DNA of 43,640 bases from Minisyncoccota bacterium (GTDB lineage Bacteria > Patescibacteriota > Minisyncoccia > Phycocordibacterales > UBA9973). The position numbers were made by a program, and so were the translations under genes. Location of the stretch: assembly GCA_017992215.1 (NCBI GenBank), contig JAGOOZ010000001.1, positions 1 through 43,640 on the forward strand. The letters are read 5' to 3'. Shown piece after piece: positions 3,409-26,993 of the stretch. The notes beneath the pieces are model-generated. The model did no database searches, was not told the DNA's origin, and saw only the letters and a list, made by a program, of their open reading frames with translations. The stretch's first letter is position 1. Every line of letters starts with the position of its first letter.

Positions 3409-4005
3409 TTATACCATGTGAACTTTAATTACTCCCATATTATCTTGACCTGATAGATATCCAGTCCATTTTTCGAGAATCGGCACTTCTATGGGTAACG
3501 ATATTTCTGGTTTTGTAAAAACAACGATGCTTTTAAATGATTTCTTGAGTATTTGCTCTTTTGCAATACAAATATCAATATTACCAGACAAGACAACGTT
3601 CTTTAAATCAAGACAATTATTAAAAATATCCTGGCTGAATGCTTCTATATTTTTTACAAGGACTACTCTCTCATTTAAATCTTGCAAAATACTAATTGCT
3701 TCAATAAATAAATTTTCATTTCCACTTTCAAGAATAAGTACCTGATTATCTTTATAATTCTTTATATCTTCGACTGAATTAATGAACACAACTTTGGAGT
3801 GGTCTGATCCAATTTGTTCTAAAAAATTATCTTTCGCCATTGGAAAAGCAGTAAAAAATAATATTTTAGAACCAGACAAAAAAAGATCGACAACGAGTGT
3901 AATAGTAAAATGAGAGCCGCCGGATTTTTCTCCGTAGATAATCAAAAACGGCAAATCTTTTTCTTTTACTTGATATAATTCATTATTTAATATGATTTTA
4001 TTCAT
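3409..4005 (-). CDS. Hypothetical protein (degenerate P-loop-like GEKSGGSH near the N-terminus)
   Basis: 198-aa ORF tightly packed behind yqeY. No confident family. Confidence 0.55.
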   Translation of the reverse strand: MNKIILNNELYQVKEKDLPFLIIYGEKSGGSHFTITLVVDLFLSGSKILFFTAFPMAKDNFLEQIGSDHSKVVFINSVEDIKNYKDNQVLILESGNENLFIEAISILQDLNERVVLVKNIEAFSQDIFNNCLDLKNVVLSGNIDICIAKEQILKKSFKSIVVFTKPEISLPIEVPILEKWTGYLSGQDNMGVIKVHMV

Positions 4006-4047: not shown

Positions 4048-4776
4048 ATGTCAAATAATATTATTTTCCTCGATACCGAAACAACAGGCAATGAGCCAGT
4101 AAAAGATTTTGTGTGTCAGCTTGCATTTAAAACCTCTGACGAAACGTTCTGTGAACTCTTCAAACCACCAATTCCTATCCCACCTGAAGCAAGTGCTGTG
4201 ACACATATCACCAACAAAATGGTCGCGGACAAAAAGGCATTCAGTGAGAGCGATAACTACGGTACTATCAAGCTCATGCTCGAAGCCTCTAATGCAGTCA
4301 TGGTCGCCCATAATGCAAAGTTTGACTTGGCGATAATTTCCAAAGAAGGAATTGTTCCGACAAATTTTATCTGTACTCTTCGTGTTGCTCGCGCACTCGA
4401 TAAAGATAATGTAATTCCACAATACAAACTCCAATACCTTCGTTATTACCTCGATATTGATATCGAAGCCGACGCACATGACGCACTCGGTGATGTACTC
4501 GTGCTTGAGAAACTATTTGAGCGACTCCTTGCAAAGACAATGAAGGAATACAGTCTTGATGAAGATGGTGCGATAGAAAAAATGATAGAAATATCTTCAA
4601 AGCCATCACTTATGAATCTCTTTTCGTTTGGAAAACACAATGGCAAAACTGTGGCTGAGGTGAAAAATATCGACCCAGGATATCTCGACTGGATGCTCAC
4701 TCAAAAAGAGCAAAACCCCGACAACGAAGAAGATTGGATTTATACGCTCAGGTATTATTTAGGAAGATTGCAATAA
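4048..4776 (+). CDS. DEDDh 3'-5' exonuclease (DnaQ/ExoX-like) with a C-terminal ExoX-type tail
   Basis: ExoI FLDTETTG, ExoII AHNAKFDL, ExoIII HDALGD. C-terminal FGKHNGKTVAEV...GYLDWM module. Confidence 0.85.
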   Translation: MSNNIIFLDTETTGNEPVKDFVCQLAFKTSDETFCELFKPPIPIPPEASAVTHITNKMVADKKAFSESDNYGTIKLMLEASNAVMVAHNAKFDLAIISKEGIVPTNFICTLRVARALDKDNVIPQYKLQYLRYYLDIDIEADAHDALGDVLVLEKLFERLLAKTMKEYSLDEDGAIEKMIEISSKPSLMNLFSFGKHNGKTVAEVKNIDPGYLDWMLTQKEQNPDNEEDWIYTLRYYLGRLQ

Positions 4777-4809
4777 TAAAATCCTGCTTAAATTTTTAAG
4801 CAGGATTTT
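4777..4809 (+). terminator. Rho-independent terminator of the exonuclease gene
   Basis: aaaatcctgcttaaa / tttaagcaggatttt perfect stem followed by a T-run. Confidence 0.85.
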
Positions 4810-4910
4810 CCGCGCCTCACGTTGGAATTGTTTACTTGGCATTGGTGCACAATACACTACATTAAGAGGACCAATTGCCATTCAAAATAACAAAAAATTA
4901 AAAAGATGTC

Positions 4911-4947
4911 AAATAAAAAAATAAGGCCATTTTCTCAAATGACCTTA
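4911..4947 (-). terminator. Rho-independent terminator closing the minus-strand RAMP-helicase-RNA locus
   Basis: Minus-strand reading: UAAGGUCAU-loop-AUGGCCUUA. It is fully paired only on the minus strand (one G-U; C-A on plus). Followed by a U7-rich tract (plus A-run 4911-4921). Confidence 0.7.
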
Positions 4948-5004
4948 TCATTAGCGTAACATACGCGTACTTGACCTAGGCTAACCACTCGGTACTGTAC
5001 GATA

Positions 5005-5203
5005 ATATTTTATATTTTTAAAAAGAACGAATTTTAATTTGTCCGGCTCATTATATGAGCCGGACCCTTACACTAGAAAACAGTAGTTCAGACTGCGGTG
5101 GGACACCATACTAAAACCAACCTGACGATAACTTCTACCAAAACACAAACGAATTTATGATTTGGATAAAAGTGCCGACCCAATAAAACGGGTCGGCAAC
5201 TCC
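5005..5203 (-). ncRNA. Structured RNA module, copy 0 (downstream of the helicase)
   Basis: Contains box B (cttctacca..caaacgaattta..gataaaag, 5132-5172), variable hairpin H1 (5173-5198), box A (aaaaagaacgaattttaattt, 5020-5040) and 10-bp hairpin H3 (5041-5065). Same order and spacing as the copies at 7.1-8.0 kb. Confidence 0.55.
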
Positions 5204-5255
5204 GCACATTACAGCAACGGAGAATGATTCACCGAAGCAAACACAGCATTATTTT

Positions 5256-7076
5256 TTATTTTAATAACCTTAACGCATCACTCACACACTCATCAAATTT
5301 CTTTGAAGATTGATATGCTGGTTGCAACCACGCAGGTAATGCACGAAGTGCAATCCTTTGATATTGCTGTGAAATCAAAAATGTCACACCATAATCATCA
5401 ACACTTCGTACATTGCGACCAGAACCATTCAATATCTTTACCATCTCTCTTCCATCCCAGATACCCCATTTCCCCCCAATACCGAAGCGCCTTTCTTCAA
5501 AAAGAGCTTTTGGGTCATTAGGTGGAGAGTATGATGGGCGAAGCATAAAGATAACAGGTGCAATTCCATTCGGCAAATCAATTCCTGCTCCATATTGAGC
5601 CATGGTACCAAGCAATGCATCACCTTGTCCTTTTTTAAAAAGGGCTACAGCTTGCTTTGGCAAAATACCGTCACAATATGTAGTTATTGGTAAATCAAGA
5701 GATGCCGCAATTGCTTTAAACTTCTCTCTTTCACTTTCAGATACAACAAGCACCAAGCTACGAATACCCTTTTTAGCGAATAGTTTACAAGTCTCAGCAA
5801 TTCTCTTCAGAACTTTTCCCTTCGTTCCCTTGTTCAGATAATTCATAGAAAGGTTTGGCATATCAATTGGTCTGTAGATTCTCCGTTTTTCAGCAGAGAA
5901 ACCAGATTTGAATGAATAAAAAGGTAAAGAACCTTTCTCTCTCCATCCTGTCTCGATACGAAAAACATTTGCATTTTCTTCAAACATTGCTGACACAGGC
6001 CAAACAAGTTTTGGGAAAATTTTCTGAACAATTGGCACCACATAATAACAACAAATGTTTAATGAATAATTTGCATTACCACTAACATTGTCTATGTGTG
6101 AGTACACATAATTCAAAGGCCTCCTTTGCTCAGTCTCGAGTGAAAATTCAAATGATTTAATATATCGATATAAATCGCGAGTAATCATTTCAAGTTTCTT
6201 TATCACTTCAATACTGTCAGCATCGGTTGGATGTTTCTTTTTCAAAACTGCGGCAACTTGTTTTTCAATGGAACTTGGTTTAATTGTTGAAAGAATTTTC
6301 ACCAACTCTGCAAGTTCTTTGTCTTCAAGAAGATTCGTTTTATTCTTGCGACTTTTTACAATCTTTATCATTGTATTTAAAAAATCGCGAAAAATATAAG
6401 ATTCTTTTATGCCATGTTCCTTTAAAAATGCTTCAATTTGCAACAAATGCCAATCTGTCACTTCATAAGAAAGTGATCTGCGTATAATGTCTGGCATCTC
6501 GTGAGCTTCATCGATAACAACTGCTTTTACATCATCCCATTCACGAGCAAATAATTTCGTAAATAAATAGAATGATATAGTACAAACAATTAAGTTACCT
6601 TGTTTGGCTTGATACTTGACATCTAGATACGGACAACGTTTTACATCTTTCTCGTTTGTATCACCAGTAGTTTGATCTACACGATGAGCACAATCTTTAA
6701 GAAGAGAACATGGCACCTGATCAGCTTTATACTTTTCAGTATAATAAAGACAATCGTACTCATTCCTGCCGTAAACAGCATGGAATTGTGGATACATCTT
6801 TTTAACTTGATCTACTTGAGCCTTATTCGGAACCAAGAGAAAATAATCACCCTTACCTTTGTGTGCGTCACGTGCGGCAAGAAGCATTGTGTACTCAGCC
6901 GCTGTTTTACCAGTGCCAGTCGGAGCGCCTAAAATAGCGCCAGATTGAATGTTGTCAAGCATAGTTAGCATTGCATGCTGACCATCTCTAATCTCCGAAT
7001 GAATACCATACGGAAAGTGCGACAGGAATTCCATGCGAGGAATCACATCTGTCTGATGTTCATGATGTTTCATCAT
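5256..7076 (-). CDS. Fe-S cluster DinG/XPD/Rad3-family ATP-dependent DNA helicase
   Basis: Walker A GAPTGTGKT and DEAH box VIDEAH. Four Cys between them (YDC, VPC, KDC, KRC) as in the 4Fe-4S domain. C-terminal helicase motifs GAGIDLPNG and RPSYSPPNDP. Confidence 0.85.
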   Translation of the reverse strand: MMKHHEHQTDVIPRMEFLSHFPYGIHSEIRDGQHAMLTMLDNIQSGAILGAPTGTGKTAAEYTMLLAARDAHKGKGDYFLLVPNKAQVDQVKKMYPQFHAVYGRNEYDCLYYTEKYKADQVPCSLLKDCAHRVDQTTGDTNEKDVKRCPYLDVKYQAKQGNLIVCTISFYLFTKLFAREWDDVKAVVIDEAHEMPDIIRRSLSYEVTDWHLLQIEAFLKEHGIKESYIFRDFLNTMIKIVKSRKNKTNLLEDKELAELVKILSTIKPSSIEKQVAAVLKKKHPTDADSIEVIKKLEMITRDLYRYIKSFEFSLETEQRRPLNYVYSHIDNVSGNANYSLNICCYYVVPIVQKIFPKLVWPVSAMFEENANVFRIETGWREKGSLPFYSFKSGFSAEKRRIYRPIDMPNLSMNYLNKGTKGKVLKRIAETCKLFAKKGIRSLVLVVSESEREKFKAIAASLDLPITTYCDGILPKQAVALFKKGQGDALLGTMAQYGAGIDLPNGIAPVIFMLRPSYSPPNDPKALFEERRFGIGGKWGIWDGREMVKILNGSGRNVRSVDDYGVTFLISQQYQRIALRALPAWLQPAYQSSKKFDECVSDALRLLK

Positions 7077-7095
7077 TTTTTCGTTATTAAAATTT

Positions 7096-7185
7096 GTGAA
7101 AGAACTAAAAATTTACTTCTACAGAACTTCAATTAAAAATTAAAATCCTGATAAAAGCAGGGATCTATTACAGATCCCCAGCTCC
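7096..7185 (-). ncRNA. Structured RNA module, copy I (truncated/degenerate, forms the helicase 5' leader)
   Basis: Box B at 7116-7185 has a diverged P2. P2 still folds as 13 bp on the minus strand with 3 G-U pairs. H1 is GGGGAUCU/AGAUCCCU. A degenerate box A (aaagaactaaaaattta) follows directly, without H3. Confidence 0.45.
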
Positions 7186-7250
7186 GGAGACTACTCTAGG
7201 GAAGCAAGCGTTACCCAGCAAGAGGATAGCGTACAGAAATAAGTAAGATT

Positions 7251-7432
7251 TATATTTTAAAAAGAACGAATTTTAGTTCGTCCTCCAGCCGAAACCGGAG
7301 GACCCGAAGAAGGGACTAGAAAAGTGAAGATTACGCAAGCACACAGCACCTCACAACACCTTAACTTCTACCAGATCACAAACGAGTTTATGATCTGGAT
7401 AAAAGCAGGGATATATCTCAATCCCCAGCTCC
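7251..7432 (-). ncRNA. Structured RNA module, copy II
   Basis: Box B 7365-7432, with P2 CCAGAUCA/UGAUCUGG compensatory relative to the other copies. Box A 7251-7280. H3 is 10 bp with a UUCG loop only when read on the minus strand. Confidence 0.55.
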
Positions 7433-7488
7433 TTACCGCTCAAGAGAGGACCGTAGTGGAGAATACGACACCACACAGCGCAACAATT

Positions 7489-7698
7489 AATATTTTATAC
7501 TTTAAAAAGAACGAATTTTAGTTTATTCAGCTCATCAGTTAGATGAGCTGAATCCAAAGATCACCCAAGATCACTTTAGTTGAGCGTGCACAACCCTGGC
7601 CGAGATCGCCACAAGTAAACGTAATCACTTCTACCAAACCACAAACGAATTTATGATTTGGATAAAAGTGCCGACCCGTTAAATAGGTCGGCAACTCC
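7489..7698 (-). ncRNA. Structured RNA module, copy III
   Basis: Box B 7628-7698, with P2 CCAAAUCA/UGGUUUGG (G-U on minus). Box A 7489-7524. H3 is 12 bp (attcagctcatc / gatgagctgaat). Confidence 0.55.
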
Positions 7699-7760
7699 GG
7701 ACACCAGATTAGAGGAGATAACAAAAGATGACGATACTGAATATAACGCTACCAAACACT

Positions 7761-7972
7761 AATATTTTTTAATTATTATAAACCACAAAGAACGAATTTT
7801 AATTTGTCAGGCTCGTATACGAGCCTGACCCAAAGAGAACACTACTTATCTCTAGCTTACTTCACAATGGGGCACCCTGCGCAAGAACGCCCTAGAGGAT
7901 TCCTACAGCACCTCAAATAAAAACTTGAGAGGCTGATAAGAATGCTCACCCGTACAAACAGGTGAGCAACTT
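7761..7972 (-). ncRNA. Structured RNA module, copy IV (box B diverged in sequence, structure retained)
   Basis: Box A 7761-7806 plus H3 gtcaggctcg/cgagcctgac. The diverged box B at 7901-7972 keeps P2 (13 positions, 1 mismatch on minus versus 3 on plus) and H1 tgctcacc/ggtgagca. Confidence 0.5.
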
Positions 7973-7997
7973 AAAACATCAATTAAAAGAACTTTGA

Positions 7998-8675
7998 TTA
8001 CTTTGCACTTTCTGGTGCATCTGTAATGTTTACCACTTCAAAACGACCGAAGCGACCTTTTTTCCAGGGTCTGAAATCTCCTACTCCAACTTTTGATCCG
8101 GAACAGGTAAATAACTCCATCAATAATTTATTATCAATTTTTGATGTATCATTAATTTTCACTGTTACCTTAAATGCCCATTCATTAAACTTCGGACGAA
8201 TAATAGCAACAGCTACGGGTGTTTTCCCTGCAGATCCTACGCCTCTCCGGGTGTCAACTTCCCATTTTTCTTCTGCGCTTTTCTGGTCTAAAAAAGGAAG
8301 GAAGGACTCCTTCACATCAATCAGATCATACAGCTCAGTACTGGTTGCAGTGGAAATTGCCTTTTTGCCGTTAATTTTAATTTGACGACCACCATTGATG
8401 AGACACCCTAAAAGATATTCGATAGGTAAACCAATTTTACCATCAGGTTTCGAATCTTCACGAATAATCTTATCAGCAGCACGATCCTTTAATGGTCTTT
8501 CTTTTTGAGAAGCCATTGAGGTTTTCGCCTTAATTCCGGCCAATTCTTCCAACGTTTCTTTTGTCATTGGATTCATAAGAATAGGAGTAATTCCTGTGCA
8601 CTCGATAACAACTGTGCGAGTCGCTGAATTGGTACTTTTACCGGTACCATTGTCAGAAGCATTAGAGCCTGCCAT
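7998..8675 (-). CDS. Hypothetical 225-aa protein with RAMP (Cas7/Csm3/Csf2-like) sequence patterns
   Basis: N-terminal strand VVIECTGITPILMN. Then DKIIRED..GKIGLPIEYLLGCLINGGR, resembling D-x-P-h-h-R-D...hPhhPGSShKGxhR. Near the C-terminus, a glycine-rich loop GVGDFRPWKKGRFGRFEV. This is pattern recall, not an alignment. Confidence 0.4.
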   Translation of the reverse strand: MAGSNASDNGTGKSTNSATRTVVIECTGITPILMNPMTKETLEELAGIKAKTSMASQKERPLKDRAADKIIREDSKPDGKIGLPIEYLLGCLINGGRQIKINGKKAISTATSTELYDLIDVKESFLPFLDQKSAEEKWEVDTRRGVGSAGKTPVAVAIIRPKFNEWAFKVTVKINDTSKIDNKLLMELFTCSGSKVGVGDFRPWKKGRFGRFEVVNITDAPESAK

Positions 8676-8729
8676 ACTTTATTTTTGTTTTTTTGATTTA
8701 AAATAATTTAGACATAAACTATCATTTAT

Positions 8730-8744
8730 TTGACTATATGTCAA
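8730..8744. promoter_or_regulatory. 15-bp palindrome TTGAC-TATAT-GTCAA in the divergent promoter region
   Basis: Perfect inverted repeat between the divergent genes 7998-8675(-) and rmuC(+). Each arm is a -35-like hexamer (TTGACT / TTGACA). Confidence 0.4.
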
Positions 8745-8826
8745 GTAGATGTGGTAATTAAATAAACCTAGATAAGGTGACTCATCGCAACACATAAAAA
8801 TAAGTTGTTTATGCTAAAATAGCACT

Positions 8827-9879
8827 ATGTCTACCGTACTTATGATTGTGCTTGGGATTCTTGTTGGCCTTACTATTGGCTTCTTTTTTATGCGTCAAAA
8901 TCGGAAACCCGAAAGCGCAAAAGATGATACAGGATTCCAACTACTCCTCTCTCATATCAATGAACTTGGTCGAACGATTGACCAGAAACTTTCTGATTCA
9001 CAGAAAGATATGAATCAATCAATGCGATATCAATCTACCGAGACATCACGCATTATTGCCGATATTACCGAGAAAATCACTCGTCTCGATGAGACTAATA
9101 AACAAGTCGTTTCATTTGCTGACCAATTAAAGAATTTGCAAGATATATTGAAGAATCCAAAACAGCGTGGAATCCTCGGAGAATACTATCTCGAAACACT
9201 TCTTAAAAATGTGATGCCTCCCGGTAGTTACCAAATGCAATACGCATTCCCTGATAGTACGATTGTCGATGCGGCGGTATTTGTGAAAGACAAAATCATT
9301 CCAATTGATTCAAAATTCTCACTTGAAAATTACAATCGTATTTCAGAAACAAATGACCCAGCTGAGAAAGAACGCTTTGAGAAAATATTTGTAAATGATT
9401 TGAAGAATCGAATTGTCGAAACATCAAAATACATCCAACCCGAAGAAGGTACGATGGACTTCGCATTTATGTTTATCCCTCACGAAGCTATCTATTATGA
9501 TTTACTCATCAACAAAATCGGCGCAGTAACCGAAGACACAGAGAATCTGATTCAGCGTGCGGCAAGTAAATATAAAGTTATCATTGTGTCCCCTACATCA
9601 TTCCTCGCATATTTACAGACAGTGCTTCAGGGATTGAAAGCACTTCAAATCGAAGAGTCCGCCAAAGATATCATCAAACGTGTCGGAGAACTAGGAACGC
9701 ACCTGCGTACGTACGAAGAAGCACACCAGAAGCTCGGTAATGCCCTCGCAACAACCGTAAACCATTTCAACAAATCAAATCATGAATTTAGAAAAATAGA
9801 CAAAGATGTGATGCGCATCACGGGTGATGCGATAAGCATTGAAGCACTCACTCTCGACAAACCACAAGATGATGAATAA
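8827..9879 (+). CDS. rmuC: DNA recombination protein RmuC
   Basis: N-terminal TM helix, coiled-coil region, KQRGILGE motif and a C-terminal nuclease-like core (FMFIPHEAIY). An extended -10 TGcTAAAAT lies 6 nt upstream of the ATG. Confidence 0.85.
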   Translation: MSTVLMIVLGILVGLTIGFFFMRQNRKPESAKDDTGFQLLLSHINELGRTIDQKLSDSQKDMNQSMRYQSTETSRIIADITEKITRLDETNKQVVSFADQLKNLQDILKNPKQRGILGEYYLETLLKNVMPPGSYQMQYAFPDSTIVDAAVFVKDKIIPIDSKFSLENYNRISETNDPAEKERFEKIFVNDLKNRIVETSKYIQPEEGTMDFAFMFIPHEAIYYDLLINKIGAVTEDTENLIQRAASKYKVIIVSPTSFLAYLQTVLQGLKALQIEESAKDIIKRVGELGTHLRTYEEAHQKLGNALATTVNHFNKSNHEFRKIDKDVMRITGDAISIEALTLDKPQDDE

Positions 9880-9919: not shown

Positions 9920-10351
9920 TTAGTAAAAACATGGAGGCTGGAAACATGATCGCCCAGCATAATTATTTCCATACATTCCATAACTAGGATAATAGTATGA
10001 TGAATTCATTGGTGAATGATACGATGATTGATTGTATGATGGGTACACATAATCAGTCATTGTAATAGGAGTCTGATAGTAATATGACGGAAACTGATTT
10101 TGTACTTGTGGTAGATATGGAGCCTGTGAATACAGAGGATTCATCATATTATAGTTTGTATTGTAATAATTAGTATTATTATAATACTGCTGTTGTGGAT
10201 ATCCACCATAATACGGCTGATTAAAGCCCATTCCACCAATACCGAGACCGATAGAAAAATTCCAACCAGCCAATGCTTGAGACGGGGCGACAAAAAGACC
10301 GAGGGCAATAAACATAAACGTCACTGACGTAATACTGTATACTTTTTTCAT
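9920..10351 (-). CDS. Secreted low-complexity Tyr/Asn/Gln/Pro-rich protein
   Basis: Start taken at MKKVYSITSVTFMFIALGLFVAPSQALA (signal peptide). The mature part is dominated by Y, N, Q, P and S and ends in CFQPPCFY. Confidence 0.65.
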   Translation of the reverse strand: MKKVYSITSVTFMFIALGLFVAPSQALAGWNFSIGLGIGGMGFNQPYYGGYPQQQYYNNTNYYNTNYNMMNPLYSQAPYLPQVQNQFPSYYYQTPITMTDYVYPSYNQSSYHSPMNSSYYYPSYGMYGNNYAGRSCFQPPCFY

Positions 10352-10418
10352 AATATACGTATTGTAACGCAATTTATCTTTTTGTCAATATACTTAACGC
10401 TAACACGACAAGCCCCTA

Positions 10419-25763: not shown

Positions 25764-26777
25764 TTAGAGTGAAAAATTCTTGATATTATAGAGATCAATA
25801 TCTTCTTCTGTTTGCTTGATTTCATCTTCGTCGCGGTCATCAATCAAATGCATTTCATCTGATTCCATATCGGGGGTATTTGTCACCACGATTGGTGTAT
25901 CTATTTTCTGAGATGCAATGAAATTTTCGAGCATTTCACTTGGATTCTTGTTTTGATTTGATTTGATTAAATCAAGTATCGTCCGAAGATCATCATGGGT
26001 AAAGAAATCGATTGTAATATACCCCCCATTTTCTTTTCGTTCGATATGTACACGAGTACCAAGACTCTCTTGAAGTTTTTCTTCCATTTCAGCAATCTCA
26101 GGATCAGGCATATATTCCTTTTTACGAACACGATCGAAAGCGATTTTTCGAGCAGCTTTTTCTGCGTCACGAACAGTCATTTTCTTAAAAACAATTTCTT
26201 TAAAGAGAACCATTTGTTCTTCTGGTCTGTCTGCAAGCATGAGAATCGGTCGTGTGTGACCCTCGCTTATCTTTCCGGCAGATAATGCATCGAGAATCTC
26301 TTGTGGAAGTGCAAGAAGGCGAAGTGTATTTGAAACATATTCACGACTCTTGCCAACTTTCATACCAACCTGCCCATGTGTGAATTTAAATTCCTCAACA
26401 AGACGGAAAAAAGCACGGGCTCGCTCAACAGCATTTAAATCTTCACGTTGGAGATTTTCAATAATCGCAAGTTCGAGTTTTGCCATACTGTCATCACCGA
26501 CACGGATAATAACAGGCACTTGATCAAGCCCTGCGAGTTTAGATGCACGAAGACGACGTTCACCGGCAATGAGTTCATACTCAACACTAATACCCTCATC
26601 TTCTCTTTGGACTTCAATACGAGACACAACGAGCGGTTGGAGCACACCATATTGACGAATAGAATCAGAGAGGTCACGTAAACGAGCCTCATCGAACTCA
26701 CGACGTGGTTGAAATGGGTTTGGTTTGATTTTAGAAGTTTCTACCCAGAAAATTGAATTACTATATAACTGTGACAT
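25764..26777 (-). CDS. parB: Chromosome partitioning protein ParB with an acidic C-terminal extension
   Basis: Start at MSQLYSNSIFWVETSKIKPNPFQPRREF. GVLQPLVV. ParB box ELIAGERRLRA. HTH GQVGMKVGKSREYVSNTLRLL. The ORF-track N-terminal extension runs through tRNA-Tyr. Confidence 0.9.
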   Translation of the reverse strand: MSQLYSNSIFWVETSKIKPNPFQPRREFDEARLRDLSDSIRQYGVLQPLVVSRIEVQREDEGISVEYELIAGERRLRASKLAGLDQVPVIIRVGDDSMAKLELAIIENLQREDLNAVERARAFFRLVEEFKFTHGQVGMKVGKSREYVSNTLRLLALPQEILDALSAGKISEGHTRPILMLADRPEEQMVLFKEIVFKKMTVRDAEKAARKIAFDRVRKKEYMPDPEIAEMEEKLQESLGTRVHIERKENGGYITIDFFTHDDLRTILDLIKSNQNKNPSEMLENFIASQKIDTPIVVTNTPDMESDEMHLIDDRDEDEIKQTEEDIDLYNIKNFSL

Positions 26778-26825
26778 GTTGTGTATTTTAGCATAGATTA
26801 CGAAGAGAGAAAAATTATGTGTATA

Positions 26826-26854
26826 TTGAAAAAAAACACAAAAGCGTGTATACT
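26826..26854 (+). promoter_or_regulatory. Promoter of tRNA-Tyr: TTGAAA-17-TATACT
   Basis: -35 at 26826-26831 and -10 at 26849-26854. The tRNA 5' end lies 12 nt downstream of the -10. Confidence 0.6.
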
Positions 26855-26865
26855 CCCCTTTGTAT

Positions 26866-26948
26866 GCGTCGGTGGTGGAGTGGTCTATCACATCAGACTG
26901 TAAATCTGACGGCCTTGGCCTTCGTTGGTTCGAATCCAACCCGGCGCA
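26866..26948 (+). tRNA. tRNA-Tyr (anticodon GUA), long variable arm, CCA not encoded
   Basis: Acceptor GCGUCGG/CCGGCGC (one G-U). Anticodon stem UCAGA/UCUGA with loop CUGUAAA. Variable arm CGGCCUUGGCCUUCG. T arm GUUGG-UUCGAAU-CCAAC. Discriminator A. Confidence 0.9.
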
Positions 26949-26993
26949 CAAAAGTAAAAAATCAAGCTCTGGCTTGGTTTTTTACTTTTGTGC
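26946..26993 (+). terminator. 22-bp hairpin immediately 3' of tRNA-Tyr (terminator-like)
   Basis: gcacaaaagtaaaaaa / ttttttacttttgtgc plus inner caagc/gcttg. The U-rich 3' arm overlaps the last 3 nt of the tRNA. Confidence 0.55.

What the first reader, a model, noticed from the sequence alone, without database searches (positions are those of the whole stretch)
7998..8675. 225-aa orphan with Cas7/Csm3-type RAMP hallmarks
The order and spacing of sequence patterns match what I recall for small type III/IV Cas7 proteins of about 210-250 aa. First, an N-terminal beta strand ending in T-G-h (VVIECTGITPILMN). Second, an acidic/basic segment followed by h-P-h-x-x-x-h-x-G-x-h (DKIIREDSKPDGKIGLPIEYLLGCLINGGR). 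This resembles DxPhhRD...hPhhPGSShKGxhR. Third, a strand pair, EVDTRRGVG...PVAVAIIRPKFNEWAFKVTVKI. Fourth, a helix, LLMELF. Fifth, a C-terminal glycine-rich loop ending in G-R-F-x-h (GVGDFRPWKKGRFGRFEV). The first 20 residues are S/N/G/T-rich and probably disordered. This is pattern recognition from memory, not a computed alignment.
Basis: inference. Interest (0 to 1): 0.65.

Follow-up and report, generated by a model that had tools for sequence, protein, structure and literature searches.

The report
Vipr RAMP protein with guide-RNA arrays
The 225-aa protein is a Cas7-like RAMP, but it is not an orphan or a CRISPR protein: it is a Vipr, the protein of the recently described VIPR RNA-guided DNA-binding systems, and it sits with about ten pentamer-repeat guide-RNA genes and an XPD/DinG-like helicase in a Patescibacteria chromosome.

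Summary
The ORF is real: minus strand, 8675..7998, 225 aa. An AlphaFold model (pLDDT 80) has a single-RRM RAMP fold. Its best solved-structure matches are type VII Cas7 and type III Csm3.

It is not an orphan, because a profile search finds 7,290 homologue clusters. It matches no Cas profile, and the window has no CRISPR array and no cas genes.

Its family profile matches the solved SUSP1 Vipr protein over the full length (E 2.5e-15). VIPR is the 'Viral Interference Programmable Repeat' system described in two 2026 bioRxiv preprints.

The flanking DNA carries the other VIPR parts:
- About ten mini-genes on the same strand, each with 8-14 pentamers of consensus NNN-G-Y followed by a 3' hairpin.
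- A 606-aa XPD/DinG-like helicase.

The order vipr, array, helicase, array recurs in most of the 16 other Patescibacteria loci that carry both genes. Sister strains differ by a clean 281-nt cassette holding two guide genes.

Predicted targets remain unresolved. I classify it as a new member of a known, very recent kind, probably the helicase-bearing VIPR type. The role of the helicase and the reading rule for NNN-GY repeats are open.

The parts
7998..8675 (-). vipr gene: a 225-aa single-RRM RAMP protein (Vipr)
   Evidence: ORF. The family profile matches PDB 36pp_D 'SUSP1 Vipr protein' over the full length, E 2.5e-15. AF2 model with pLDDT 80. Foldseek gives Cas7 and Csm3 folds. phrog_4652.
7943..7968 (-). 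GC-rich hairpin followed by TTCTTATCAG, just after the vipr stop codon (terminator-like)
   Evidence: and the sequence. It has the same hairpin + CTTTTATCMR design as the tails of units B1, C1, D1 and E1.
7806..7903 (-). Candidate vrRNA A2: about 13 NNNGY pentamers, then TTGG and a 12-bp hairpin
   Evidence: Period-5 score of 18-19 out of 24. Fold. Coordinates checked.
7775..7802 (-). Promoter-like site (TTAAAA-16-TATAAT) overlapping the conserved motif AAATTCGTTCTTT (7787-7799). Further copies of the motif lie at 7506-7518, 7261-7273 and 5022-5034.
   Evidence: The motif occurs 4 times exactly, all on the minus strand and all in this locus, against 0.32 expected matches at <=1 mismatch.
7669..7760 (-). 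Candidate vrRNA B1: 13 pentamers, 12 of 12 with Y at position 5 in the best window, then CCGGAGT, a 9-bp hairpin and CTTTTATCCA
7525..7632 (-). Candidate vrRNA B2: about 14 pentamers, then TTGG and a 12-bp hairpin. It is preceded by a weaker promoter-like element (ATCATAAATTCGTTTG..GGTAGAAGT).
   Evidence: 19 of 20 period-5 pyrimidines. Fold z-score -3.1.
7521..7801 (-). 281-nt cassette holding B1 and B2. It is present here and absent in sister strains, and it is bounded by direct copies of TAAAATTCGTTCTTT.
   Evidence: Alignment of same-species contigs. L067, L068, L070 and L071 lack exactly this stretch. L061, L062 and L069 have it.
7406..7484 (-). Candidate vrRNA C1: about 11 pentamers, then AAGGAGC, a hairpin and CTTTTATCCA
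7280..7367 (-). Candidate vrRNA C2: about 12 pentamers, then TCGG and a hairpin
   Evidence: 17 of 19 period-5 pyrimidines. Coordinates.
7158..7247 (-). Candidate vrRNA D1: about 12 pentamers, then CCGGAGC, a hairpin and CTTTTATCAG
   Evidence: 13 of 13 period-5 pyrimidines. Fold.
5256..7076 (-). Accessory gene: 606-aa XPD/Rad3/DinG-family SF2 helicase. It has Walker A GAPTGTGKT at residue 50, DEAH at residue 189, and Cys109/123/129/148 between them.
   Evidence: Pfam DEAD_2 and Helicase_C_2. NCBIfam YoaA, rad3 and DinG, all below cutoff. PADLOC 'typeIV_DinG, CAS-IV-A associated', E 9.5e-33, full length. PDB XPD. Motif positions. Synteny with vipr in 16 Patescibacteria loci.
5173..5250 (-). 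Candidate vrRNA E1, directly after the helicase stop: about 10 pentamers, then GCGGAGT, a hairpin and CTTTTATCCA
5041..5129 (-). Candidate vrRNA E2: about 13 pentamers (12 of 12 Y), then AAGG and an 11-bp hairpin
4923..5003 (-). Weaker candidate vrRNA F1, behind its own AAATTCGTTCTTT/TATAAAAT promoter: 12 pentamers (8 of 12 Y) and a hairpin
   Evidence: Its periodicity is weaker than in the other units.
4778..4873 (-). Weaker candidate vrRNA G1: about 13 pentamers, then GCGGA and a long hairpin that may also terminate the convergent exonuclease gene
   Evidence: Score 18. Sister strains carry a 1-nt insertion here that breaks the pentamer register, so the unit may be decaying.

Best explanation
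The ORF encodes a Vipr protein. Vipr is the minimal single-RRM RAMP of a VIPR (Viral Interference Programmable Repeat) system. The complete system spans about 4778-8675 on the minus strand: vipr, six small vrRNA genes, an XPD/DinG-like helicase gene (the accessory 'vap' gene), and up to four more vrRNA genes. It is a roughly 4-kb island among housekeeping genes in the chromosome of a Candidatus Paceibacterota (Patescibacteria/CPR) bacterium.

The mechanism below is taken from the characterised SUSP1 and P. fulva systems and is inferred here. Each vrRNA is transcribed from its own small promoter. One Vipr protomer binds each pentamer, so the protein forms a helical filament along the RNA. The G-loop (D200-F201-R202) and the thumb arginine (R160) hold the conserved G-Y of each repeat flipped out, and the variable bases are presented for gapped base pairing with double-stranded DNA. 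The bound filament blocks transcription of the target, most likely a phage or another mobile element.

The helicase step is also inferred, by analogy with type IV-A CRISPR. In that picture the helicase is loaded at the R-loop and unwinds or clears the target DNA, which extends or reinforces the interference.

Shown here: homology, fold, conserved RNA-contact residues, the repeat RNA genes, conserved synteny, and cassette-level array variation between strains. Not shown here: expression, RNP formation, the pairing rule for NNN-GY repeats, the targets, and any helicase function.
For: (1) Homology. A profile of the family matches PDB 36pp_D 'SUSP1 Vipr protein', profile positions 1-191 against chain residues 1-190, E 2.5e-15. 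Pairwise BLASTP aligns the C-terminal 59 aa at 37% identity.

(2) Fold. The AF2 model shows a single RRM with a helical insertion, a long beta-hairpin thumb and a G-loop. Foldseek returns Cas7 and Csm3. In BFVD the best matches are uncharacterised phage proteins and one 'Cas system-associated RAMP superfamily protein'.

(3) RNA- and DNA-contact residues. The residues defined by cryo-EM and mutagenesis in SUSP1 (10.64898/2026.04.26.720927) are kept here: R138=R160, D177=D200, W178=F201, R179=R202, K82=R97, K88=K104 and E71=E86. Most of them are invariant in the family.

(4) vrRNA genes.
- Of the 22 best-scoring 60-nt windows for period-5 'G then Y' in the whole 43.6 kb on both strands, 21 lie on the minus strand between 4804 and 7903.
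- Composition over 123 pentamers: positions 1-2 are close to uniform, position 4 is G 56% / C 33% / A 2%, and position 5 is pyrimidine 90%.
- Each tract ends in a stable hairpin whose sequence differs from unit to unit.
- Promoter-like boxes with the motif AAATTCGTTCTTT precede the units.
- This matches the published anatomy of 9-16 pentamer repeats plus a 3' tail, including the variant consensus YNNNG.

(5) Synteny. In 16 Patescibacteria loci a 37-43% identical, mostly full-length homologue of the helicase lies near vipr. In 15 of them it is 0.7-2.3 kb downstream on the same strand. In L012 it is divergent. In most of these loci period-5 arrays lie on the strand of the gene they follow, after vipr and after the helicase.

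(6) Not CRISPR. There are no CRISPR-like repeat arrays, no cas genes and no Cas profile hits.

(7) Maintained and evolving. The locus is identical in several assemblies. Other strains lack exactly one two-vrRNA cassette.

(8) The helicase keeps Walker A, DEAH and four Cys at the position of an XPD-type Fe-S domain.
Against: - There are no expression data, so the promoters, transcript ends and RNP formation are all inferred.
- The repeats are degenerate. A strict YNNGG scan finds nothing in the locus. The first G of GGY is not conserved and the second G is only 56% G.
- The published 1-nt-skip rule was established only for GGY/NN (type II) systems.
- Target prediction is unresolved (details under tried and rejected).
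- The 3' tail is a plain hairpin, not the pseudoknot described for the SUSP1 clade.
- The type number cannot be confirmed, because the paper's supplementary classification is not available.
Confidence: 0.88

Rival explanations
1. It is a bona fide CRISPR-Cas backbone subunit (Cas7 of type III or type IV, i.e. Csm3, Cmr4 or Csf2), left as a solo remnant or belonging to a degenerate type IV-like system that uses the neighbouring DinG-like helicase.
For: The fold matches Cas7 and Csm3. The neighbouring helicase's best defence-database hit is 'typeIV_DinG, CAS-IV-A associated' (E 9.5e-33). Type IV-A systems pair a Cas7 filament with DinG (established knowledge).
Against: No Cas7, Csf2 or Csm3 profile matches at E<=1. 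There are no CRISPR-like repeat arrays and no Cas5, Cas6, Csf1 or Cas10 genes in the window. The significant sequence match is to Vipr. The flanking RNA genes are pentamer repeats, not repeat-spacer units. The specific Csf4 model matches the helicase only at E 0.0012. The helicase has four Cys where CasDinG is described as having only a vestigial Fe-S domain (my recollection of the CasDinG literature, not checked here).
Confidence: 0.04
2. It is a Vipr homologue, but the locus is an inactive relic, and the periodic intergenic DNA is decaying repeat sequence that no longer makes functional guides.
For: The pentamers are degenerate: G at position 4 is only 56%. Unit G1 carries a register-breaking 1-nt indel in sister strains, and F1 is weakly periodic. 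No convincing targets were found.
Against: Both ORFs are intact. The key Vipr residues and the helicase motifs are conserved. The array sequences are identical across independent assemblies apart from a clean cassette indel. Every unit keeps its promoter-like box and tail hairpin. The same architecture is kept at 35-53% protein identity across Patescibacteria, which implies selection.
Confidence: 0.06
3. It is an RNA-binding RAMP used for something other than DNA targeting, for example RNA-guided RNA binding or cleavage as in type III Csm3, or processing of the neighbouring small RNAs as Cas6 does.
For: The fold is closest to the RNA-targeting Cas7 proteins of types III and VII. SUSP1 Vipr can also pair with ssRNA in vitro.
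Against: In the characterised systems, complete filament assembly and silencing require a DNA triplex. The DNA-contact residues K82 and K88 have basic equivalents here, R97 and K104. The conserved partner is a DNA helicase of the XPD/DinG family.
Confidence: 0.02

Closest known systems
VIPR systems, Vipr protein of Escherichia phage SUSP1 and the P. fulva prophage (type II VIPR; bioRxiv 10.64898/2026.04.26.720920 and .720927; PDB 36pp)
   Same: Homologous protein with a full-length profile match. Single-RRM RAMP with thumb and G-loop. The G-loop D-[W/F]-R-P, the thumb R-P and the basic helix-1 residues are conserved. Arrays of independent small RNA genes made of about 8-14 pentamer repeats with a conserved G-Y and a structured 3' tail flank the protein genes on the same strand. 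A two-gene locus with no CRISPR array.
   Different: About 24% overall identity to SUSP1 Vipr. There is a 4-residue insertion (WKKG) in the G-loop and a disordered N-terminal extension. The repeat consensus is NNN-G-Y, with the first G of GGY not conserved (G 12-34% in this clade against 53-99% in all but one of the other clades). The tail is a hairpin rather than a pseudoknot. The accessory gene is an XPD/DinG-like helicase rather than the type II vap, which the paper predicts to be a DNA-binding protein. The locus sits in a cellular chromosome among housekeeping genes, not in a phage.
Helicase-encoding VIPR type. Inferred to be type IV, because the paper says types III-V encode nucleases or helicases and that only types III and V encode nucleases.
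   Same: A Vipr gene plus a helicase vap gene, variant pentamer consensus (YNNNG is listed among the variants), and a cellular chromosome.
   Different: I could not confirm the type number or whether this Patescibacteria clade is among the paper's 667 representatives, because no supplementary files are held. No helicase-type VIPR has been tested functionally. The structural paper calls the role of these accessory genes unclear.
Type IV-A CRISPR-Cas (Csf2/Cas7 filament plus CasDinG/Csf4)
   Same: A RAMP filament on a guide RNA paired with a DinG-family 5'-3' helicase and no nuclease in the locus. PADLOC's 'typeIV_DinG, CAS-IV-A associated' model matches the helicase over its full length (E 9.5e-33).
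   Different: No CRISPR array, Cas6, Cas5 or Csf1. The guides are pentamer repeats, not spacers. No Csf2 profile hit. The Csf4-specific model matches the helicase only weakly (E 0.0012).
Type III Csm3/Cmr4 and type VII Cas7
   Same: These are the best structural matches: RRM core, thumb hairpin and G-rich loop (TM 0.45-0.52).
   Different: 9-15% identity in the listed Csm3 and type VII Cas7 structural alignments, no profile-level sequence match, and no Cas10, Csm or Cas14 partners.

Membership tests
VIPR system / Vipr protein | Sequence homology of the protein to an experimentally characterised Vipr | tested here: met
   The family profile (12 sequences) matches PDB 36pp_D 'SUSP1 Vipr protein': E 2.5e-15, profile positions 1-191 against chain residues 1-190. 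BLASTP of the C-terminal 59 aa gives 37% identity, E 2e-8.
VIPR system / Vipr protein | Minimal RAMP fold: a single RRM core, a thumb beta-hairpin and a glycine-rich loop, with no second RRM | tested here: met
   AF2 model with pLDDT 80.1: beta1 20-28, helical insertion 39-67, helix-1 85-96, hairpin 139-163, helix 182-196, G-loop 197-211, beta 212-219. Foldseek top hits are Cas7 and Csm3.
VIPR system / Vipr protein | Residues that hold the GGY motif and contact DNA in SUSP1 (H17, R138, D177, W178, R179, E71/M72, K82, K88) | tested here: met
   R160, D200, F201 (aromatic in place of W), R202, E86/Y87, R97 and K104 align to them. H17 corresponds to N35. N at the H17 position is also the rule in clades with canonical GGY repeats.
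VIPR system / Vipr protein | vrRNA genes in the flanking intergenic DNA on the vipr strand: tandem pentanucleotide repeats with conserved GGY (or a related consensus) alternating with variable bases, then a conserved or structured 3' tail | tested here: met
   21 of the 22 top period-5 windows in the window fall in this locus on the minus strand. Position 5 is Y in 90% and position 4 is G or C in 89% of 123 pentamers. There are about ten units, each with a hairpin tail. The consensus is the relaxed NNN-G-Y (YNNNG), not strict YNNGG: the strict scan found none in the locus.
VIPR system / Vipr protein | Minimal locus without a CRISPR array or cas genes, with one accessory (vap) gene | tested here: met
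   TRF finds no CRISPR-like repeat arrays. The neighbours are housekeeping genes. The helicase is conserved next to vipr in 16 Patescibacteria loci.
VIPR system / Vipr protein | vrRNAs are expressed, co-purify with Vipr, and direct sequence-specific dsDNA binding by the 1-nt-skip rule | not testable with these tools
   This needs sRNA-seq, pull-down and binding or repression assays. The in-silico target search was inconclusive.
CRISPR Cas7 (Csm3/Cmr4/Csf2) | Match to a curated Cas7, Csm3, Cmr4 or Csf2 sequence profile | tested here: not met
   0 families at E<=1 in Pfam, NCBIfam and PADLOC.
CRISPR Cas7 (Csm3/Cmr4/Csf2) | Genomic association with a CRISPR array and other effector-complex genes (Cas5, Cas6, Cas10 or Csf1) | tested here: not met
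   No CRISPR-like repeat arrays and no cas genes among the window's ORFs. Only a DinG-like helicase is adjacent.
CRISPR Cas7 (Csm3/Cmr4/Csf2) | RAMP/Cas7 fold | tested here: met
   Foldseek E 1.6e-6 to 1e-4, TM 0.45-0.52, to type VII Cas7 and Csm3. The fold is shared with Vipr, so it does not discriminate between the two families.

The most novel reading that the evidence does not exclude
The Patescibacteria helicase-VIPR clade may use a recognition code different from the published GGY/NN 1-nt-skip rule. Only G-Y is fixed in each pentamer and three bases vary, so the third variable base may take part in target reading, or the skip length may differ. The XPD/DinG-like helicase may turn filament binding into active unwinding or clearing of the target. 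That would make this a free-standing, array-less functional counterpart of type IV-A CRISPR, and possibly an evolutionary link to it. Guides would be exchanged as promoter-bounded cassettes rather than acquired by Cas1-Cas2.
Probability: 0.25. Interest if true: 0.65.

Novelty: new member of a known kind. Interest (0 to 1): 0.45.

Why it matters
VIPR was described only in 2026, as an RNA-guided DNA-binding system with a non-contiguous code and as a proposed ancestor of the CRISPR RAMPs. Only type II (phage) systems have been tested functionally, and the authors state that the role of the helicase and nuclease accessory genes is unknown.

This locus is a compact, intact example of the helicase type in a CPR bacterium with a reduced genome. 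It offers:
- about ten annotated guide genes;
- a clearly relaxed repeat consensus (NNN-GY);
- natural strain-to-strain cassette variation.

It therefore gives concrete material for two open questions: how degenerate repeats are read, and what a DinG/XPD helicase adds to a RAMP filament. The second question also bears on type IV-A CRISPR. For genome annotation, it shows that 'hypothetical' phrog_4652-like proteins next to long 'empty' intergenic DNA should be checked for VIPR.

Tried and rejected
- **Strict YNNGG scan.** A scan for at least 3 perfect units over both strands found nothing in the locus. The repeats only appear with the relaxed G-Y criterion.

- **Rfam.** Gathering thresholds and E<=10 over 4700-8900 found no hammerhead or other ribozyme and no known sRNA, only noise. 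This is therefore not the ribozyme-interspersed array type.

- **H17 to N35 as the cause of the lost first G.** I supposed that the change of SUSP1 H17, which contacts G1, to N35 explains loss of the first G. This is rejected. Clades with canonical GGY arrays (G at position 3 in 53-97% of pentamers) also have N at that position (GTTPLLCN).

- **RmuC (8827-9879) and the DEDDh/ExoX-like exonuclease (4048-4776) as accessory genes.** Neither is a conserved neighbour in the other Patescibacteria loci. They mark the insertion site only.

- **Self-targeting.** The best NN matches of all vrRNAs in the window and in 50 related loci are about 70%, the same for skip 0, 1 and 2. No self-target was found.

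- **Target search with the 1-nt-skip rule** (exact matches, 10 units = 20 fixed bases, IMG/VR):
  - B1 hit two near-identical contigs, counted as one event, in a 278-aa ORF with no family assigned.
  - D1 hit eight contigs that fall into two unrelated genes. From their motifs I read them as a ribonucleotide reductase and a primase; neither was checked against a family library.
  - E2, C2, A2 and B2 gave no hits.
  - Two order-reversed control patterns gave no hits.
  - Two 11-unit patterns gave no hits in metagenome contigs.
  - In the hits the skipped base is codon position 1, not the wobble base. The flanking units do not extend the match. Position 3 of the pentamer agrees with the skipped base only at chance level (3-5 of 10). 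No other vrRNA converges on the held parts of those contigs.
  - I treat the hits as possibly chance. I could not compute the expected number because the size of the collection is not given.

- **Prophage or phage origin of the window.** Rejected. Both flanks are housekeeping genes: Obg, YqeY, DnaX, Dus, SerRS, TopA, RelA/SpoT, ParB, ClpB and IF-2.
Full report
**1. The observation**

The ORF lies on the minus strand: ATG at 8675, stop at 7998, 225 aa. The plus-strand frame of the same interval is full of stops.

An AlphaFold2 model built on a 12-sequence alignment has mean pLDDT 80.1 and pTM 0.76.
- a first strand at residues 20-28;
- a helical insertion at 39-67;
- a short strand and then helix-1 at 85-96;
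- a long beta-hairpin at 139-163;
- a strand at 167-174;
- a helix at 182-196 that contains LLMELF;
- a glycine-rich loop at 197-211 and a last strand at 212-219;
- residues 1-15 with pLDDT below 50.

**2. Is it an orphan, and is it a Cas7?**

Pfam, NCBIfam and PADLOC return nothing for the protein even at E<=1. PHROGs family phrog_4652 (function unknown) matches over the full length at E 2.5e-15.

The word-seeded search found 11 relatives. An exhaustive profile search of 1.84 billion cluster representatives found 7,290 at E<=1e-3 and 2,948 at E<=1e-10. It is therefore a large family, not an orphan.

Foldseek against the PDB gives type VII Cas7 (8z4j_F, E 1.6e-6), Csm3 (6xn3_F, 6ifn_E) and Cmr subunits, with TM 0.45-0.52. 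Against viral models, the best hits are uncharacterised phage proteins and one annotated 'Cas system-associated RAMP superfamily protein'. The RAMP/Cas7-like fold is confirmed.

**3. What it is**

The family profile matches one solved structure strongly: 36pp_D, 'SUSP1 Vipr protein', at E 2.5e-15 over profile positions 1-191 and chain residues 1-190.

Two 2026 bioRxiv preprints describe VIPR, the Viral Interference Programmable Repeat systems (10.64898/2026.04.26.720920 and .720927). According to them:
- Vipr is a roughly 20-kDa single-RRM RAMP that branches outside Cas5, Cas6 and Cas7.
- It polymerises on vrRNAs made of 9-16 pentamers, with conserved GGY alternating with variable NN, followed by a 3' tail.
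- The NN dinucleotides pair with double-stranded DNA, skipping every third target base, and this silences transcription.
- Loci typically hold vipr, one accessory 'vap' gene and long intergenic stretches that encode the vrRNAs.
- Seven types exist. Types III-V carry nucleases or helicases.
- Variant repeat consensuses (NNNGG, YNNNG, NNNNG) exist.

The residues shown by cryo-EM and mutagenesis to hold the repeat and the DNA in SUSP1 have equivalents here:

| SUSP1 | This protein |
|---|---|
| R138 | R160 |
| D177 | D200 |
| W178 | F201 |
| R179 | R202 |
| E71 | E86 |
| K82 | R97 |
| K88 | K104 |
| H17 | N35 |

Most of these are invariant in the family. The G-loop carries a 4-residue insertion (WKKG) relative to SUSP1.

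**4. The rest of the system**

*Helicase.* Downstream on the same strand lies a 606-aa SF2 helicase of the XPD/Rad3/DinG family, at 7076..5256.
- Pfam gives DEAD_2 and Helicase_C_2.
- Its best PDB relatives are XPD proteins.
- PADLOC's 'typeIV_DinG, CAS-IV-A associated' model matches over the full length at E 9.5e-33.
- It keeps Walker A (GAPTGTGKT at residue 50), DEAH (residue 189) and four cysteines (109, 123, 129, 148) at the position of an XPD-type Fe-S domain.

*Intergenic repeats.* The 921 nt between the two genes and the 479 nt after the helicase are not empty.
- They hold repeated modules with hairpins and the motif AAATTCGTTCTTT. The motif occurs 4 times exactly, all on the minus strand and all in this locus, against 0.32 expected matches at <=1 mismatch. 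TATAAT-like boxes follow the motif.
- I scored every 60-nt window of the 43.6-kb sequence, on both strands, for G at position 4 and pyrimidine at position 5 of twelve consecutive pentamers. Of the 22 best windows, 21 lie on the minus strand between 4804 and 7903.
- Over 123 pentamers, positions 1-2 are close to uniform and position 3 is weakly G/T. Position 4 is G 56% / C 33% / A 2%. Position 5 is pyrimidine 90%.
- Each tract of about 8-14 pentamers ends in ..GG(A) followed by a stable hairpin. The hairpin sequence differs between units while the pairing is kept.

I count eight good units (A2, B1, B2, C1, C2, D1, E1, E2) and two weaker ones (F1, G1). Their coordinates are listed under parts. 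This is the vrRNA anatomy in its relaxed NNN-G-Y (= YNNNG) form. A strict YNNGG scan finds none in the locus. Rfam finds no ribozyme or known RNA there.

**5. Conservation elsewhere**

A scan of one genome per species found 50 loci.
- The closest relatives (35-53% identity) are all Patescibacteria: Paceibacterota, Saccharibacteria, Parcubacteria and Doudnabacteria.
- L013, 99% identical over the part it holds, names the host as Candidatus Paceibacterota.
- In 16 Patescibacteria loci a 37-43% identical, mostly full-length helicase homologue lies near vipr. In 15 it is 0.7-2.3 kb downstream on the same strand. In L012 it is divergent.
- The more distant Vipr loci (about 30% identity, other phyla) lack this helicase.
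- In most of the Patescibacteria loci, period-5 arrays lie after vipr and after the helicase, on the strand of the gene they follow.
- In this clade G at the first position of 'GGY' is at background level (12-34%, apart from two loci represented by a single window each). In all but one of the other clades it is 53-99%. The helicase clade therefore has a distinct consensus with three variable bases per repeat.

**6. Context and dynamics**

The window is chromosomal. Obg, YqeY, an ExoX-like exonuclease, RmuC, DnaX, Dus, SerRS, TopA, RelA/SpoT, ParB, ClpB and IF-2 surround the roughly 4-kb island. There is no CRISPR-like repeat array. RmuC and the exonuclease are not conserved neighbours in other loci.

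Contigs of the same species carry either an identical 921-nt spacer (L061, L062, L069) or a 640-nt one (L067, L068, L070, L071). The shorter version lacks exactly the 281-nt cassette with units B1 and B2. The cassette is bounded by direct copies of TAAAATTCGTTCTTT. The arrays therefore change by gain or loss of whole promoter-bounded cassettes.

The few point differences in the downstream array fall mostly on the variable positions. Unit G1 has a register-breaking indel in sister strains.

**7. Targets**

- Using the published 1-nt-skip rule with exact 10-unit patterns, two of six guides hit IMG/VR contigs.
  - B1 gave one event.
  - D1 gave two unrelated genes, which I read from their motifs as a ribonucleotide reductase and a primase.
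- Two order-reversed controls and two 11-unit metagenome scans gave nothing.
- The hits do not extend into flanking units and place the skipped base at codon position 1 rather than the wobble base.
- The other guides do not support them.
- No self-targets exist.
- I regard the targets as unresolved. The rule itself is untested for NNN-GY repeats.

**8. Mechanism**

*Shown here:* a Vipr homologue with the RNA-holding residues, about ten pentamer-repeat RNA genes, and a conserved helicase partner.

*Inferred from the SUSP1 and P. fulva work:* one protomer binds each pentamer. The G-Y is flipped into the pocket formed by the G-loop and the thumb. The variable bases pair with DNA in a gapped R-loop triplex, and transcription of a mobile element is blocked.

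*Inferred by analogy with type IV-A CRISPR:* the DinG/XPD-like helicase loads at the R-loop and unwinds or clears the target. The authors themselves state that the role of helicase and nuclease accessory genes is unclear.

**9. Verdict**

The locus is a new member of a known, very recent kind.

It is probably the helicase-bearing VIPR type. I infer type IV because the paper says types III-V encode nucleases or helicases and that only types III and V encode nucleases. I could not confirm this, because no supplementary files are held.

Confidence in the Vipr/VIPR assignment is about 0.88. The helicase step and the reading rule are open.

Noticed in passing
window 4048-4776 (+): A 242-aa DEDDh/ExoX-like 3'-5' exonuclease converges on the end of the vrRNA array. 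It matches PADLOC's generic 'DEDDh, CAS-associated' model (E 1.4e-29) and Pfam RNase_T and ExoX-like_C. It is not a conserved neighbour of vipr in other Patescibacteria loci, so it is probably just the insertion-site flank.
   Followed up: partly
window 8827-9879 (+): An RmuC-family protein is divergent from vipr. It weakly matches the PADLOC 'RTasRmuC' (DRT-associated) model (E 5e-14). It is conserved next to the locus only within the same species; L005 has an RmuC about 6 kb from vipr.
   Followed up: partly
window 3409-4005 (-): A 198-aa ORF with no hit in Pfam or PADLOC. It lies between the exonuclease and YqeY here and in L061 and L062. It is absent from sister-strain contigs L067-L070, where the exonuclease gene abuts YqeY. 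It is a strain-variable gene of unknown function next to the island.
   Followed up: partly
L053/L055/L060 and L054/L056-L059 (IMG/VR contigs): The 10-unit gapped pattern of vrRNA D1 matches two unrelated phage genes exactly...TTREVAQNGRR... in a 540-aa ORF and ...RTPAGEVAKDSG... in a 319-aa ORF. From their motifs I read them as a ribonucleotide reductase and a primase. The 20 read positions are identical and 7 of 10 skipped positions differ between the two genes. Whether this is real targeting or chance could not be decided.
   Followed up: partly
L020, L041, L047-L050 and other non-Patescibacteria loci: Distant Vipr loci (Chloroflexota, Deltaproteobacteria, Magnetococcales, Planctomycetes and others) carry canonical GGY arrays, some very large: 26 ten-pentamer windows in L041 and 14 in L020. 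They lack the helicase.
   Followed up: partly
L035 and L042 (the same Victivallales contig, about 26 kb apart): Two separate Vipr loci lie in one chromosome, CAXXKX010000003.1 at 3.33 Mb and 3.35 Mb.
   Followed up: no
window 9920-10372 (-): A 150-aa ORF with a signal-peptide-like N-terminus and an extremely Y/N/Q/P-rich low-complexity body (YYNNTNYYNTNYNMMNPLYSQ...). It overlaps a 15-nt tandem repeat.
   Followed up: no
window 25764-26951 (-) and 26866-26949 (+): The mechanically listed 395-aa ParB ORF (TTG start) overlaps tRNA-Tyr on the opposite strand. The true ParB start is probably further downstream.
   Followed up: no
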